Below are positions 5,878 to 29,394 of a stretch of DNA of 30,827 nt, one piece after another. Positions within the stretch are counted from its first letter, which is position 1. Each line of letters starts with the position of its first letter. The stretch spans positions 1 to 30,827 of the forward strand of contig JBGPIS010000001.1 of the NCBI GenBank assembly GCA_041484965.1, read 5' to 3'. A program made the position numbers and the translations under genes. The notes under the pieces are model-generated. The model ran no database searches, was not told the DNA's origin, and was given only the letters and a program-made list of their open reading frames with translations. Source of the DNA: Candidatus Methylomirabilia bacterium. Its GTDB lineage: Bacteria; Methylomirabilota; Methylomirabilia; Rokubacteriales; CSP1-6.

Positions 5878-6256
5878 GCGCCAGAGAAGGCCTGTAAGCC
5901 GGGTTCTGTTCCCCGAGCAGTTTCCTGACCCAGGGCGACAGTCATTTCTCTAGGACGCCGGTTGCCCGACGTCTCCAGCGGCCTAACCCGAGAGCGCGGG
6001 CGGGCGACCCGATGGCTCTCCTATTTGGCCTTGCTCCGGGTGGGGTTTGCCTAGCCGACGCGGTCACCCGCGCCGCTGGTGAGCTCTTACCTCACCGTTT
6101 CACCCTTACCGCCCTCGCGGGCGGCGGTCTGTTTTCTGTGGCACTGGTCCGTGGGGTTGCCCCCCCTGGGTGTTACCCAGCACCCTGCCCTGCGGAGCCC
6201 GGACTTTCCTCCCGCCACGTTGCCGCGGCCGGCGACCGTCCAGCCTTCTCTGGCGC
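5878..6256 (-). ncRNA. rnpB: RNase P RNA, bacterial type A
   Basis: Minus strand has the universal GAGGAAAGUCC and ACAGAACCCGGCUUAC P4 strands, and AGUGCCACAGAAA. A 13-bp P1 helix forms between 5878-5890 and 6244-6256. Confidence 0.97.
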
Positions 6257-7469: not shown

Positions 7470-7544
7470 TGGTGGGCCCACCTGGACTCGAACCAAGACC
7501 TAACCGGTTATGAGCCGGCTGCTCTGCCATTGAGCTATGGGCCC
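7470..7544 (-). tRNA. tRNA-Ile2 (anticodon CAT, lysidine type)
   Basis: Cloverleaf GGGCCCA..GCCGG-CTCATAA-CCGGT..TTCGAGT..TGGGCCC-A-CCA with encoded CCA. C4:G69 and C5:G68 (TilS determinants) are present, there is no C1:A72 initiator mismatch, and the position just downstream of rpoD matches ileX. Confidence 0.9.
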
Positions 7545-17471: not shown

Positions 17472-17546
17472 TGGTTGGGGCGGGAGGATTCGAACCTCCG
17501 AATACGGGATCCAAAGTCCCGCGCCTTGCCGCTTGGCCACGCCCCA
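17472..17546 (-). tRNA. tRNA-Gln (TTG)
   Basis: TGGGGCG..GCCAAGCGGCAAGGC..CGGGA-CTTTGGA-TCCCG..GGTTCGAATCC..CGCCCCA-A-CCA. U1:A72 is the known bacterial GatCAB determinant. Classical ispE-tRNA-Gln-prs synteny. Confidence 0.96.
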
Positions 17547-24856: not shown

Positions 24857-25435
24857 TCAGCGCCGGAGACGCCGGCGCGCGAGCAGGCCGAGCGCGGCTG
24901 CCGGCGCCGTCAGCCAGAGCGCTCCCGAGGGGACGCCCGCGACCGCGTTGATCGCGAGGACGGCGGCGCCCCCGACGGCGCCCATCCAGAGGAGCCCCGC
25001 CGCCGCCACGTCCGCCGCCGCGCGCCAGCCGCGGCGCGCCACGACGAGCGCGGCCAGGGCGCCCGCGCCGTCGATGACGACGTCCATCGCGCTTCCGATG
25101 CGCGTGGGAAGCGTGGACTGGTGCCACTCGTCGAGGAACGCCCAGCCGACGCTGAGCGCGAGCGCGGCCCAGGCGGCGACCCGCGGGGCGAGGCCCCGGC
25201 CGCGAACGAACGCGCGGAAGCAGAGGGCGGCGAGGATCGCGTACTCGGTGAGGTGCGCGCCCTTGCGCGCGAGGCCGTGGACGGCCTCGAGCTGGCCCGG
25301 CGTGGCCCACGGCAGCAGCCAGCGGAGCGACGGCAGCAGCCACCGGCCGGTGTGCTCGGCGCTCCCGGTGTCGGAGGAGAGCCCCATGATGACCGCCATC
25401 CAGACGACCGGAGGGAGCCAGTGGGCGAGGCGCAT
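24857..25435 (-). CDS. VanZ-family membrane protein
   Basis: RKGAHLTEYAIL, LDEWHQSTLPTR.GS..DV..D motifs and several TM segments. Confidence 0.85.
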   Translation of the reverse strand: MRLAHWLPPVVWMAVIMGLSSDTGSAEHTGRWLLPSLRWLLPWATPGQLEAVHGLARKGAHLTEYAILAALCFRAFVRGRGLAPRVAAWAALALSVGWAFLDEWHQSTLPTRIGSAMDVVIDGAGALAALVVARRGWRAAADVAAAGLLWMGAVGGAAVLAINAVAGVPSGALWLTAPAAALGLLARRRLRR

Positions 25436-25439
25436 CGCC

Positions 25440-25449
25440 TGCTATGATA
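25440..25449. promoter_or_regulatory. Overlapping back-to-back -10 boxes (bidirectional promoter)
   Basis: Plus strand TGcTATGAT (25440-25448), 7 nt before ATG 25456. Minus strand TATCAT (25449-25444), 8 nt before ATG 25435. Confidence 0.6.
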
Positions 25450-25455
25450 CCGGGC

Positions 25456-25803
25456 ATGGCGCGAGTGGACTGGAGCTATCACCGGAAGGGCTGAGGCTCC
25501 TGCGCCAAGGCGCAAGAGTTTCTTGCGAAGAAGAAGGCGAGCGTCGTCGAGCAGGTGGACACGCGGAAGTCGCCGATCACGGGCGCCGCCGCCCTCGCCG
25601 TCACGCGTGACGTGGACGAGATCTGGGTGGCCAAGGGGAAGAAGGCGGTCCACGTCGACCTCACGGGCGCGCGGCCGGGGAAGGCCGAGCTGCTCACACT
25701 GCTGCTCGGGCCGACGGGCGGGCTCCGGGCGCCGACGCTCCGGGTGGGACGGACGCTGCTGGTCGGATTCAACGAAGAGGTGTACGCGAAAATTCTGAAG
25801 TAG
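25456..25803 (+). CDS. ArsC/Spx-like thioredoxin-fold selenoprotein (UxxC), 115 aa
   Basis: ATG GCG CGA GTG GAC TGG AGC TAT CAC CGG AAG GGC TGA GGC TCC TGC = MARVDWSYHRKG-U-GSC. Continues in frame to LLGPTGGLRAPTLRVGRTLLVGFNEE (ArsC-family R-P motif). The TGA (25492-25494) occupies the first Cys position of the CxxC motif. Confidence 0.85.
25511..25527 (+). promoter_or_regulatory. Candidate bacterial SECIS element
   Basis: CGCAAGA-GTT-TCTTGCG, a 7-bp stem whose loop begins with G at +24 from the UGA. Confidence 0.6.
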
Positions 25804-25843: not shown

Positions 25844-28189
25844 ATGCTCGGCGAGATCCTCGACGATCTGCTGACCTCACCGTCGACGGGGCCGTGCATC
25901 ACGGCGATCCGTCACTTCGCCGCCCGCCCCCCCGTTCCCGCGCCCTTCCCGCCGTCACTCGATCCGCGCATCGCCGACGCGCTGCGCGCTCGGGGGATCC
26001 ACGAGCTCTACTCGCATCAGGCGCGGGCGTGGGCGCTGATCGAGAAGGGGCACAATGTCGTCGTCGTCACGCCGACGGCGTCCGGCAAGACCCTCTGCTA
26101 CAACCTGCCCGCCCTGCAGGCGCTGATCGCGCAGCCGGACGCGCGCGTCCTCTATCTCTTCCCGACGAAGGCGCTCGCCCAGGACCAGCTGGCTGAGCTG
26201 GAGGAGCTCGCGAAAGAGCTCCCCGAGATGCGGATGTTCACGTACGACGGCGACACGCCGCAGGACGCGCGCCGCGCGGTGCGGGCGCGCGCCAACCTCG
26301 TGTTGACCAACCCTGACATGCTTCACTCCGGGATCCTGCCCCACCATACAAAATGGGCGACCCTGTTTCAGAACCTCAGATACGTCGTCATCGACGAGCT
26401 GCATGCCTATCGGGGAGTCTTCGGAAGCCACCTGGCCAATGTCTTGCGCCGACTGCGGCGCATCTGCCGCCACTATGGATCGGCGCCCCAGTTCATCATG
26501 GCTTCGGCCACGATCGCCAACCCGGGCGAGCTCGCCCGGCGGCTCACCGGCGCCGAGGTCGAGGAGCTCGCGGAGAGCGGTGCCCCGACGGGCGACAAGA
26601 CGTTCGTCTGCTACAACCCGCCGGTCGTGAACCCCGAGCTCGGCATCCGGGCGCCGTACCTTGGCGAGGCCTCGAGGCTCGCGGTGCGCTTCCTCCGGGA
26701 GAAGATCGCGACGATCGTCTTCGCCCAGAGCCGCCTCGCGACGGAGGTACTGCTCGGCTCGATCAAGAACGGCGTCGCCGACAAGACCGGCGACAGCGGC
26801 ATCGTGCGCGGCTACCGCGGCGGGTACCTGCCGACCCGCCGGCGGGCGGTCGAGAAGGGGCTGCGCGAGGGCCTAGTCCTGGGCGTCGTGTCGACGAACG
26901 CGCTGGAGCTTGGCGTCGACATCGGCCACCTCGACGTGGCCCTGCTCGCAGGCTATCCGGGCGCCATCGCCTCCCTCTGGCAGCAGGCCGGGCGCGCGGG
27001 GCGCCGCTCGGGCTCCTCAGCCGCGATCTTCGTCGCGACCAGCGCACCGCTCGACCAGTTCATGGTGACGCACCCCGAGTACCTCTTCGGCACGCCGCCC
27101 GAGCACGCGCGGGTGAATCCGGACAACCCGTTCATCCTCGTGAACCATCTCAAGTGCGCCGCGTTCGAGCTGCCGATTGCCGACGACGCGAAGTTCGGCG
27201 AGGTCGACGTTCGGCGCCTCCTCGCCGCGCTCGAGGATGAGGGCGTCCTGCACCATGCGGGTTCGCGGTGGCACTGGGCCTCGGAGACCTACCCGGCCGA
27301 TCATGTCTCGCTCCGCAGCGTCACGAGCGACAACTTCCTCGTGATCGACACGACCTCGCGCGACGAGACGCAGACCAAGCGCCGGCAGATCATCGCCGAG
27401 GTGGACTGGGGAAGCGCGTTCGCGACGATCCACCCGAAGGCGATCTACCTCGTCGAGAGCGAGCCGTTCGAGGTGCGGGAGCTCCACTTCCGCGAGGACG
27501 AGGAGAAGGTCGCCTACGTCAAGCGCGTCTCCGTGGACTACTTCACCGACGCGATCAGCGCCAAGGGGGTCTGGATCCTCCAGCGGCTCGCCGACCAGGG
27601 CCACGCCGCGTACCTCGCCGAGCAGGGCGAGGTGCTCGTCGCCGAGAAGGTCGTCGGCTTCAAGAAGATCAAGATGGGGACGCTCGAGAACGTCGGCTCG
27701 GGCGAGGTGGAGCTGCCGCAGCAGGAGATGCAGACGACCGCCGCGTGGCTCACGGTCGCGCCCGAGACGCTTCCGCGCGTGAGCGCCTCGCGCGAGGAGC
27801 TGATCGACGGCCTGCGCGCCGTGACGTACCTGCTGCATCACCTCGCGCCGATCTTCCTCCTCTGCGACATCCGAGACCTCGGCTCGTGGCTCGGCGACAC
27901 GACGCCCGCCGAGCCCGGCGCCGTCGCGACGCGCGAATCGGCGAAGCGGCGGCTCATGAGCGCCGAGCGGTTCAACCCGACGATCTACCTTTACGACTCT
28001 CACGCCGGCGGCATCGGCCTCGCCGAGCGCGTCTTCGAGGTCCTGCCCGACCTCCTGAAGCAGGGCCTCGCGACGCTGGATGCCTGCGCCTGCAAGTTTG
28101 GCTGCCCGTCGTGCGTCGGCCCCGTCAACGAGGTCGGCCGCAGGGCCAAGGCGACGGCGCAGGCGCTGCTGCGCCTCCTCACCGCCTGA
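25844..28189 (+). CDS. mrfA: SF2 DEAD/DEAH helicase with C-terminal DUF1998 (MrfA/YprA-like)
   Basis: TPTASGKT, PTKALAQDQ, DELH, SAT, ELGVDIG, QQAGRAGRR. C-terminal LLCD..DACACKFGCPSCVGP cysteine cluster. Confidence 0.88.
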   Translation: MLGEILDDLLTSPSTGPCITAIRHFAARPPVPAPFPPSLDPRIADALRARGIHELYSHQARAWALIEKGHNVVVVTPTASGKTLCYNLPALQALIAQPDARVLYLFPTKALAQDQLAELEELAKELPEMRMFTYDGDTPQDARRAVRARANLVLTNPDMLHSGILPHHTKWATLFQNLRYVVIDELHAYRGVFGSHLANVLRRLRRICRHYGSAPQFIMASATIANPGELARRLTGAEVEELAESGAPTGDKTFVCYNPPVVNPELGIRAPYLGEASRLAVRFLREKIATIVFAQSRLATEVLLGSIKNGVADKTGDSGIVRGYRGGYLPTRRRAVEKGLREGLVLGVVSTNALELGVDIGHLDVALLAGYPGAIASLWQQAGRAGRRSGSSAAIFVATSAPLDQFMVTHPEYLFGTPPEHARVNPDNPFILVNHLKCAAFELPIADDAKFGEVDVRRLLAALEDEGVLHHAGSRWHWASETYPADHVSLRSVTSDNFLVIDTTSRDETQTKRRQIIAEVDWGSAFATIHPKAIYLVESEPFEVRELHFREDEEKVAYVKRVSVDYFTDAISAKGVWILQRLADQGHAAYLAEQGEVLVAEKVVGFKKIKMGTLENVGSGEVELPQQEMQTTAAWLTVAPETLPRVSASREELIDGLRAVTYLLHHLAPIFLLCDIRDLGSWLGDTTPAEPGAVATRESAKRRLMSAERFNPTIYLYDSHAGGIGLAERVFEVLPDLLKQGLATLDACACKFGCPSCVGPVNEVGRRAKATAQALLRLLTA

Positions 28190-28197
28190 GCACCGCC

Positions 28198-29394
28198 GTG
28201 CCGTCGCTCGACGACCTCCGGCGCGTGATCCGGCGCATCGAGACGCGCCGGCCGCCGTGCCACGCCGCTGCGCCCGTCCAGGAGGTCCTGGGCGGCGAGC
28301 TCCACGACACGGGCGAGGGCCAGATCCTCGTCGTGCGCCGCGAGTTCCCGCTCTCTCACTGTCACGGCCGCCAGCTGCTCGGCGCGGCGTTCGAGGCGCC
28401 GCTGGATCTCCTCGGCGCCGTCGCGCGGATGGACGCGCCCCCCACCGACGCCCGGGGCCTCCTCTTCCTCGACACGGAGACGACGGGGCTCGCGGGAGGC
28501 ACCGGGACCTACGCGTTCCTCGTCGGCGCCGGCTGGCTCGAGGACGAGCGGCTCGTGCTGGCGCAGTACTTCATGCGCGACCTCGACGAGGAGGGGGCGC
28601 TCCTCGCCGCGTTGGCGCCGCTCTTCGAGCGCGCGAGCGGCGTCGTGACCTTCAACGGCGCGGGCTTCGACCTGCCGCTGCTCGAGACGCGGTTCGTTCT
28701 GGCCCGGCGCCGCTGGCCGGCCACGCTCCCGCACCTCGACCTCCTGCGTCCGTCGCGCCGCGTGTGGACAGGGCACTTCGCCGACTGCCGGCTCGCGACG
28801 CTCGAACGCGAGGTGCTCGGCCTCGAGCGCCCTGACGACGTGCCGGGCGCCCTGATCCCGGGGCTCTACTTCGACTATCTGCGGTCGCGCCGGGCGGCGC
28901 CGCTCGTCCGCGTCTTCGAGCACAACCGCGACGACGTGCTCTCGCTGGTGGGGCTGCTCGGCTGGTTCGTCCGCGCGCTCGGCGCCCAGGCCGCGCTCGC
29001 CGCCGAGGAGCGCGCCGGACTCGGCCGCCTCTGGGAGCCCGTGGACCTCGCGCGCGCGCTCGCGTGCTACCGGGCGGCGCTGGAATCCGGGCTCGCCGGC
29101 GCGGAGGCTCACCGGGTGCGCCTGCGCCTGGCGCGGTGGGAGAAGCGCGCGGCGCGCTGGGACGCGGCGTGCGCCCTCTGGCAGGCCGCCTCGCGGCACG
29201 CGGACTTCGACCCGCAGCCCTGGGAGGAACTCGCGAAGTTCCACGAGCACCGCCGCCGCGATCTCGCCGCCGCGCGCGCGCTCGTCGGGGAGGCGCTCGC
29301 CCTCGCCGAGGCCGCCGCCGCGTCAGCGCGCGTCGTCGAGGCCCTGGCGCACCGCTGTGCGCGCCTGACGCGCCGGCTCGCGGCGCGGGGCTGA
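28198..29394 (+). CDS. mrfB: RNase H-like DEDD exonuclease with TPR-like tail (MrfB/YprB-like)
   Basis: FLDTETTGL, TFNGAGFDLPLL, HLDLL, FEHNRDDV, and an alanine-rich helical C-terminus. GTG 28198, 8 nt after the helicase stop. Confidence 0.82.
   Translation: MPSLDDLRRVIRRIETRRPPCHAAAPVQEVLGGELHDTGEGQILVVRREFPLSHCHGRQLLGAAFEAPLDLLGAVARMDAPPTDARGLLFLDTETTGLAGGTGTYAFLVGAGWLEDERLVLAQYFMRDLDEEGALLAALAPLFERASGVVTFNGAGFDLPLLETRFVLARRRWPATLPHLDLLRPSRRVWTGHFADCRLATLEREVLGLERPDDVPGALIPGLYFDYLRSRRAAPLVRVFEHNRDDVLSLVGLLGWFVRALGAQAALAAEERAGLGRLWEPVDLARALACYRAALESGLAGAEAHRVRLRLARWEKRAARWDAACALWQAASRHADFDPQPWEELAKFHEHRRRDLAAARALVGEALALAEAAAASARVVEALAHRCARLTRRLAARG

What the first reader, a model, noticed from the sequence alone, without database searches (positions are those of the whole stretch)
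25456..25803. Hidden selenoprotein: ArsC/Spx-like redoxin with a UxxC active site
Seen: the ORF track reports only the C-terminal 82 aa, but an in-frame ATG at 25456 gives MARVDWSYHRKG-TGA-GSC. The UGA falls exactly at the first position of the redox CxxC motif, followed by a SECIS-like hairpin. GC-biased coding continues on both sides, and TGA is an ordinary stop in other genes here. Established: Sec typically replaces the nucleophilic Cys of thioredoxin-fold CxxC motifs, and ArsC-like selenoproteins have been reported in some bacteria. Inference: this organism uses Sec, and standard annotation would truncate or miss this 115-aa protein.
Basis: partly seen in the sequence, partly recalled or inferred. 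Interest (0 to 1): 0.85.

Follow-up and report, generated by a model that had tools for sequence, protein, structure and literature searches.

The report
Known ArsC-like selenoprotein, correctly spotted
This is a real selenocysteine-containing redox protein that ordinary gene finders cut short, but it belongs to a selenoprotein family that is already described and curated, so it is a correct call and not a discovery.

Summary
ATG 25456 opens a 115-codon frame with one in-frame TGA (25492-25494) at the first position of a UxxC motif, and TAG ends it at 25803.

- The protein scores 131.5 bits (cut-off 85) against NCBIfam NF041106, "ArsC family (seleno)protein".
- The genome holds selA, selB, a Sec-containing selD and tRNA-Sec (anticodon TCA).
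- TGA sits at the same column in 13/13 orthologs from related genera and in 25/25 wider loci from several phyla.
- Full-length homologs carry Cys at that column.
- TGA is the ordinary stop of the neighbouring genes.

The functional SECIS is probably not the minimum-energy hairpin that starts at the UGA. It is a 7-bp stem with a GUU loop at 25511-25527, 23 nt after the UGA. That hairpin is conserved with compensatory changes, is built from rare codons, and is missing in three Cys-form genes.

The family has been in the literature since 2008 ("Arsenate reductase 2, UxxC") and is listed under NF041106 in a 2026 review. Methylomirabilota are already reported as selenoprotein-rich. The biochemical function is untested. 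Novelty is low.

The parts
25456..25803 (+). Complete coding sequence of the ArsC/Spx-like selenoprotein (115 aa, U13, TAG stop)
   Evidence: NF041106 131.5 bits over positions 1-107/107. The start is supported by Cys-form homologs that begin with near-identical MxxxDWSYHR N-termini.
25492..25494 (+). In-frame TGA read as selenocysteine (codon 13)
   Evidence: Same column is TGA in 13/13 orthologs and 25/25 wider loci. Full-length homologs have Cys there. No variant in four independent assemblies.
25492..25503 (+). UxxC redox motif (U13-G14-S15-C16)
   Evidence: C16 is invariant and G12 precedes it in 23 homologs. In the AlphaFold model (pLDDT 92.9) the motif lies between strand 3-9 and helix 14-25. 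It aligns with the CxxC of Spx.
25511..25527 (+). Bacterial SECIS candidate (hairpin B): 7-bp stem 25511-25517 / 25521-25527, GUU loop 25518-25520
   Evidence: 95.2% of cells paired across 35 sequences, compensatory changes at 2 pairs, 0/500 shuffles reach the score. Loop G lies 23 nt after the UGA in 31 of 35 sequences (22-24 in the rest). Absent in 3 Cys-form genes, and built from rare CAA/TTT/CTT codons.
25493..25522 (+). Hairpin A: the minimum-energy fold, mutually exclusive with hairpin B, probably not functional
   Evidence: z = -0.11 against shuffles. 70.2% paired, no compensatory change, no better than shuffles.
25723..25737 (+). LRAPT motif (R91, P93 invariant), counterpart of the LRRP motif of Spx
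   Evidence: Invariant columns. Aligned with LRRP of Spx 3l78.
24857..25435 (-). Divergent upstream neighbour, VanZ-like membrane protein (context only)
   Evidence: PF04892 43.2 bits. Syntenic only in close Rokubacteria relatives.
25844..28189 (+). Downstream neighbour, MrfA/Hrq1-type DEAD helicase with MZB zinc domain (context only)
   Evidence: Syntenic only in close relatives.

Best explanation
The gene at 25456-25803 encodes a 115-residue selenoprotein of the ArsC/Spx/YffB superfamily. It belongs to the curated subfamily NCBIfam NF041106 ('ArsC family (seleno)protein'; 'arsenate reductase-like protein, UxxC' in the literature). The host is a Rokubacteria/Methylomirabilota-type bacterium from sediment or groundwater. 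UGA at codon 13 is decoded as selenocysteine by SelB with Sec-tRNA(Sec). SelB is recruited by an in-frame hairpin with a 7-bp stem and a GUU loop, whose loop G lies 23 nt downstream of the UGA (shown by comparative evidence, not by experiment). Sec13 sits at the N-terminus of helix alpha-1 of a thioredoxin-like fold and pairs with Cys16. By inference, the protein works as a selenol/thiol-disulfide oxidoreductase that cycles through a Sec13-Cys16 selenenylsulfide. Its physiological substrate is unknown, and it is probably not a true arsenate reductase.
For: Family: NF041106 131.5 bits against cut-off 85, full length; Pfam ArsC 25.2 against 24.
Machinery in the same genome: selA 579.5 bits and selB 376.1 bits, adjacent; selD 336 bits, itself with U in the active-site loop; tRNA-Sec 69.8 bits with anticodon TCA.
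Conservation: TGA at the same column in 13/13 orthologs from 13 genera and in 25/25 loci whose record titles include Rokubacteria, NC10, Polyangium, Terriglobia and Planctomycetota. The residues before the UGA (W6, Y8, H9, R10, G12) are invariant.
Sec/Cys pair: full-length homologs have Cys. 'W' forms are TGA read as Trp (shown for P0006).
SECIS: hairpin B is 95% paired with compensatory A-U to G-C changes and exceeds all 500 shuffles. Stem length, loop size, loop G and spacing fit the published bSECIS model. Three Cys forms lack it, and rare codons build it.
Code: TGA is a normal stop nearby.
Assembly: independent assemblies keep TGA.
Fold: pLDDT 92.9; top matches are YffB and Spx.
Against: There is no direct evidence of selenium incorporation or expression. 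No RNA run was shown to hold the gene. The bare 17-nt hairpin gives -7.4 kcal/mol, just short of the -7.5 threshold of the published model; with flanking bases it gives -8.7. Within the closest 13 orthologs the stem hardly varies, so covariation rests on a few distant lineages, and the stem overlaps conserved codons (Q-E/G-F-L-A). The oxidoreductase function is inferred from motif and fold only. Fold similarity to solved ArsC/Spx structures is moderate (TM 0.53-0.57). Gene context gives no functional clue outside close relatives.
Confidence: 0.93

Rival explanations
1. The TGA is a nonsense mutation, sequencing error or assembly error, so the locus is a pseudogene or really encodes Cys.
For: Single in-frame stop in a fragmented MAG (428 contigs, 87% complete). 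One syntenic relative (L068) does carry a degraded copy.
Against: TGA is at the identical column in 38 loci from many genera and several phyla. The N-terminal peptide is conserved as protein. Four independent metagenome assemblies keep TGA without indels. The Sec machinery is complete.
Confidence: 0.01
2. The organism uses a code in which TGA is a sense codon (Trp or Gly, tables 4/25), so residue 13 is not Sec.
For: Some public gene calls print W at this column.
Against: One such W call was checked and is TGA translated by the caller. TGA ends five of the six adjacent genes, including the four Pfam-supported ones checked at their stops, and ends several orthologs of this very gene. The genome has tRNA-Sec with anticodon TCA plus selA/B/D. 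Cys, not Trp, is the alternative residue in homologs.
Confidence: 0.01
3. The gene is Sec-decoded, but the protein is an Spx-like redox-sensing regulator that binds RNA polymerase (or a dedicated partner), not a free oxidoreductase.
For: Spx proteins are among the best sequence and fold matches. The CxxC and LRRP-type motifs align.
Against: The Spx/MgsR model TIGR01617 scores 20.7 bits against cut-off 75, and the Spx equivalogs score under 16 bits. The central subdomain is predicted to hold a beta-hairpin (55-68), and the fit to Spx is only TM about 0.55. Spx is (own knowledge) characteristic of Firmicutes.
Confidence: 0.05
4. It is a true arsenate reductase in which Sec replaces the catalytic Cys.
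For: Pfam ArsC is just over threshold. JGI names relatives 'arsenate reductase-like glutaredoxin family protein'.
Against: The arsenate reductase model TIGR00014 is not among the matches at E<=1. The literature treats the UxxS arsenate reductase selenoprotein (TIGR00014) as a separate family. Only R10 and R91 are invariant arginines. No ars genes are adjacent.
Confidence: 0.05

Closest known systems
[quoted passage not shown]
   Same: Full-length HMM match well over the cut-off, the same UxxC motif, the same length, and Sec and Cys forms in the same family.
   Different: Nothing essential; this is a member.
Spx/MgsR redox-sensing regulators (PDB 1z3e, 3gfk, 3l78, 6ghb)
   Same: ArsC-type thioredoxin-like fold. 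The N-terminal CxxC aligns with UxxC, and the LRRP motif aligns with LRAP.
   Different: Far below the Spx family cut-offs. TM is only about 0.55. The predicted central insert contains a beta-hairpin. Spx has no Sec.
YffB (PA3664, PDB 1rw1), ArsC-family protein of unknown function
   Same: Best fold match (TM 0.57), and similar size of 114 aa.
   Different: 23% identity; sequence E-value only 1.3e-3; not a selenoprotein.
Arsenate reductase selenoprotein (TIGR00014, UxxS; 'ArsC 1' of the GOS study)
   Same: Same superfamily (PF03960), with Sec at the N-terminal nucleophile position.
   Different: Different motif (UxxS, not UxxC) and a different HMM. TIGR00014 does not match this protein at E<=1.
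E. coli fdhF-type bacterial SECIS
   Same: In-frame hairpin just after the UGA, with a small apical loop carrying G then U. Stem length, loop size, loop G and spacing fall inside the published consensus model.
   Different: The loop G lies 23 nt after the UGA. In fdhF it is about 4 nt closer (own knowledge of the G23/U24 numbering). This hairpin has a triloop and no bulged U.

Membership tests
NCBIfam NF041106 ArsC family (seleno)protein | HMM score over the curated cut-off across the full model | tested here: met
   131.5 bits against 85, positions 1-107/107; 123.8 bits in the genome search.
NCBIfam NF041106 ArsC family (seleno)protein | U/C-x-x-C motif at the conserved N-terminal column | tested here: met
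   U13-G-S-C16. The column is TGA in 38 loci and Cys in full-length homologs.
Bacterial selenoprotein (SelB/SECIS-dependent UGA decoding) | selA, selB, selD and tRNA-Sec present in the same genome | tested here: met
   All four are over curated cut-offs. Anticodon is TCA. SelD is itself a Sec protein.
Bacterial selenoprotein (SelB/SECIS-dependent UGA decoding) | In-frame UGA aligned with Cys in homologs and conserved in orthologs | tested here: met
Bacterial selenoprotein (SelB/SECIS-dependent UGA decoding) | bSECIS geometry (PMC13188914): 3-9 nt apical loop, 4-16 bp upper stem, G in the first two loop positions, 16-37 nt spacing | tested here: met
   7-bp stem, loop GUU (or A-GUU-U with a closing A-U pair), spacing 23 nt. 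The same geometry holds in 34 of 35 family members. Criteria are quoted.
Bacterial selenoprotein (SelB/SECIS-dependent UGA decoding) | bSECIS free energy of -7.5 kcal/mol or lower | tested here: inconclusive
   -7.4 for the bare 17-mer and -8.7 with flanking bases. The result depends on the window folded.
Bacterial selenoprotein (SelB/SECIS-dependent UGA decoding) | Selenium physically present in the protein | not testable with these tools
   Needs 75Se labelling or mass spectrometry.
Pfam PF03960 ArsC/Spx superfamily | HMM over the gathering score, and an ArsC-type thioredoxin-like fold | tested here: met
   25.2 against 24 bits, which is marginal. AlphaFold pLDDT 92.9. Top PDB fold matches are YffB and Spx, TM 0.53-0.57. 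Profile hits to Spx/ArsC-like chains have E 1e-7 to 1e-3.
Spx/MgsR RNA polymerase-binding regulators (TIGR01617) | HMM over the curated cut-off | tested here: not met
   20.7 bits against 75.05. Spx equivalogs score 14-16 bits against cut-offs of 123-159.
Glutaredoxin-coupled arsenate reductase ArsC (TIGR00014) | HMM match | tested here: not met
   TIGR00014 is not among the NCBIfam matches at E<=1. Own knowledge: the family also has a catalytic arginine triad; here only R10 and R91 are invariant arginines, which was not mapped formally onto the triad.

The most novel reading that the evidence does not exclude
NF041106 proteins may be neither arsenate reductases nor generic redoxins. They could be a functionally distinct branch of the ArsC/Spx superfamily, marked by a beta-hairpin in the central insert and an invariant W-x-Y-H-R-x-G-U motif. 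Such a branch might act as a Sec-based redox switch or as a dedicated reductant for a specific partner, for example a selenium-dependent Spx-like regulator.
Probability: 0.08. Interest if true: 0.5.

Novelty: already known. Interest (0 to 1): 0.15.

Why it matters
The main value is for annotation. Standard gene callers truncate this gene to 82 aa, and most public entries of the family are truncated in the same way, so selenoproteomes of soil and sediment Methylomirabilota/Rokubacteria are under-counted unless Sec-aware models such as NF041106 are applied. The family-wide SECIS described here (fixed 23-nt spacing, GUU loop, absent from Cys forms) could serve as a clean test case for SelB-SECIS recognition outside E. 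coli. It opens no new question, because the family, its UxxC motif and the selenoprotein richness of the phylum are already published.

Tried and rejected
1. The minimum-energy hairpin that starts at the UGA (25493-25522). It is no better than shuffles and is not conserved, so it was rejected as the SECIS in favour of hairpin B.
2. Rfam. No SECIS-type family reached threshold in the window. This is uninformative because bacterial SECIS elements of this kind are not modelled there.
3. Covariation within the 13 closest orthologs. The stem is nearly invariant, so the test had no power. Wider loci were needed.
4. Gene context as a functional clue. The VanZ / Sec gene / MrfA-helicase arrangement holds only in close Rokubacteria relatives, and Cys-form homologs sit in unrelated contexts. 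It was rejected as a conserved module.
5. Arsenate reductase and Spx memberships. Both failed their HMM cut-offs.
6. Expression evidence. No RNA run was shown to hold the gene, and only DNA contigs were laid.
7. Codon usage was estimated from long high-GC3 frames of the window, some of which are probably not genes, so the percentages are rough.

Full report
**Observation.** The window reads ATG at 25456, twelve sense codons (MARVDWSYHRKG), TGA at 25492-25494, then GGC TCC TGC. The frame stays open to TAG at 25801-25803. Under the standard code only an 82-aa GTG ORF at 25555-25803 is listed. TGA ends five of the six neighbouring genes, including the four Pfam-supported ones checked at their stops: two ABC permeases, a VanZ-like gene and a DEAD/MZB helicase. 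The description is accurate.

**Family.** With Cys standing in for Sec, the protein matches NCBIfam NF041106, "ArsC family (seleno)protein", at 131.5 bits against a cut-off of 85 over the whole model. It matches Pfam ArsC (PF03960) just over threshold, 25.2 against 24. The Spx/MgsR models and the glutaredoxin models lie far below their cut-offs. The true arsenate reductase model TIGR00014 does not appear at all.

**Sec machinery.** The window's genome is a MAG of 2.7 Mb in 428 contigs, 87% complete.
- selA (579.5 bits) and selB (376.1 bits) lie side by side on one contig.
- selD scores 336 bits and has its own in-frame TGA in the active-site loop, CAG-U-ASK.
- tRNA-Sec scores 69.8 bits, and ARAGORN gives anticodon TCA.

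The organism therefore decodes UGA as Sec and has at least one other canonical selenoprotein.

**Comparative evidence for the UGA.**
- In 41 genomes of the same order (the window's own plus 40 relatives), 13 from 13 genera have an ortholog over the NF041106 cut-off. Every one has exactly one in-frame TGA, at the same alignment column.
- A scan of species-representative genomes gave 26 more loci. All 25 intact ones have TGA at that column. Their record titles name Rokubacteria, Methylomirabilia/NC10, Polyangium, Terriglobia/Acidobacteria, Planctomycetota, Deferrimicrobiaceae, Verrucomicrobiia and a gammaproteobacterial family.
- The residues before the UGA are conserved as protein: W6, Y8, H9, R10 and G12 are invariant. 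Translation must therefore run through the codon.
- In the protein database most relatives are truncated calls of 67-102 aa.
- Full-length relatives of 115-122 aa carry Cys at the column. A few carry W. One W call was checked and is TGA read as Trp by the gene caller.
- Contigs from four independent metagenome runs (sediment, cave, groundwater) cover the gene at 95-99% identity or more. None shows a change at the TGA or any indel. The only nearby variant is 25496 G>A (Gly14 to Asp).

**SECIS.** Two mutually exclusive hairpins can form.
- Hairpin A (25493-25522) is the minimum-energy fold but is no better than shuffled sequence. Across 35 family members it is only 70% paired, shows no compensatory change and does not exceed shuffles.
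- Hairpin B (25511-25527) has stem CGCAAGA/UCUUGCG and loop GUU. It is 95% paired. It shows compensatory A-U to G-C changes in Polyangium and a different stem sequence in the gammaproteobacterial locus. It exceeds all 500 shuffles and all slid controls.
- Its loop G lies 23 nt after the UGA in 31 of 35 sequences, and 22-24 nt in the rest.
- Stem length, loop size, loop G and spacing fit the published bacterial SECIS model: 3-9 nt loop, 4-16 bp stem, G in the first two loop positions, 16-37 nt spacing (PMC13188914).
- The energy criterion of -7.5 kcal/mol is borderline: -7.4 for the bare hairpin and -8.7 with flanking bases.
- In this 71% GC genome the hairpin is built from CAA, TTT and CTT. 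Each of these is roughly 6-10% of its synonymous set (rough estimate).
- Three Cys-form genes have no hairpin at the corresponding place.

**Caveat on the SECIS.** The stem overlaps conserved codons, and covariation rests on a few distant lineages.

**Structure and function.**
- An AlphaFold model built on 23 homologs is confident (pLDDT 92.9, pTM 0.86). It places U13 between strand 3-9 and helix 14-25, the usual position of the nucleophile in thioredoxin-fold redoxins.
- The best PDB fold matches are YffB and Spx, then other ArsC-family proteins and glutaredoxins, at TM 0.53-0.57.
- A profile search finds the same group. It aligns UxxC with the CxxC of Spx and LRAP with LRRP.
- The predicted central insert contains a beta-hairpin (55-68), which may explain the moderate TM scores.
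- I infer a selenol/thiol oxidoreductase that cycles through a Sec13-Cys16 selenenylsulfide. The substrate is unknown.
- Gene context does not help. The VanZ / Sec gene / MrfA-type helicase order is kept only among close Rokubacteria relatives, and Cys-form homologs sit in unrelated neighbourhoods.

**Comparison with what is known.**
- ArsC-like selenoproteins were listed in 2006 (PMC1794560).
- The UxxC form appears as "Arsenate reductase 2, cd03032, UxxC" in the 2008 ocean-sampling study (PMC2398784).
[quoted passage not shown] It also notes a Methylomirabilota MAG predicted to carry 63 selenoprotein genes.
- The gene is thus a member of a known, curated family in a phylum already known to be rich in selenoproteins.

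**Verdict.** The finding is a correct annotation and not a novelty. No experiment has yet shown selenium in any member I could find, and the biochemical role of the family remains open.

Noticed in passing
L010:1501-2442 (own genome, contig C16): SelD of this genome is itself a selenoprotein, with TGA in the active-site loop (CAG-U-ASK).
   Followed up: partly
L068:3001-3222: One Rokubacteria MAG (isolate AR26) carries a degraded copy in the same syntenic slot. The TGA is kept, but the second Cys of the motif is lost and the match covers only about 74 codons, so it looks like a decaying selenoprotein gene.
   Followed up: no
window 25496: Strain variant G>A (Gly14 to Asp, the first x of UxxC) in contigs of three of four independent metagenome runs. 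The TGA itself is unchanged.
   Followed up: no
relatives G007, G009, G011, G017, G019, G022, G024-G027, G037 and others: Fifteen further ArsC-like matches below the NF041106 cut-off (25-52 bits) each also carry one in-frame TGA. Related genomes therefore appear to hold one or more paralogous Sec-containing ArsC-like subfamilies that this HMM does not cover.
   Followed up: no
P0006, P0046, P0106, P0125: Four public gene calls print Trp at the Sec column. P0006 was checked and its W is TGA translated as W by the caller. Such entries would mislead alignments.
   Followed up: partly
L056 and L055: A 60%-identical copy with a bacterial in-frame SECIS sits on a 70-kb contig of a MAG titled Candidatus Nitrosocosmicus (an archaeon), and a 66%-identical copy sits in a Verrucomicrobiia MAG. 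Mis-binning or horizontal transfer is possible.
   Followed up: no
window 25435-25456: The VanZ-like gene (minus strand, ATG at 25435) and the Sec gene (ATG at 25456) diverge with only 20 bp between their start codons. This leaves no room for ordinary promoters and leaders. There may be leaderless transcripts, or the VanZ start may lie further in.
   Followed up: no
window 25844-29394: An MrfA/Hrq1-type helicase (DEAD, WHD_HRQ1, MZB zinc domain) is followed by an RNase_H_2 superfamily nuclease, which resembles the MrfA-MrfB repair pair.
   Followed up: partly
window 5879-6251 (-), 7473-7544 (-), 17475-17546 (-): Bacterial class A RNase P RNA (310 bits) and two tRNA genes.
   Followed up: no
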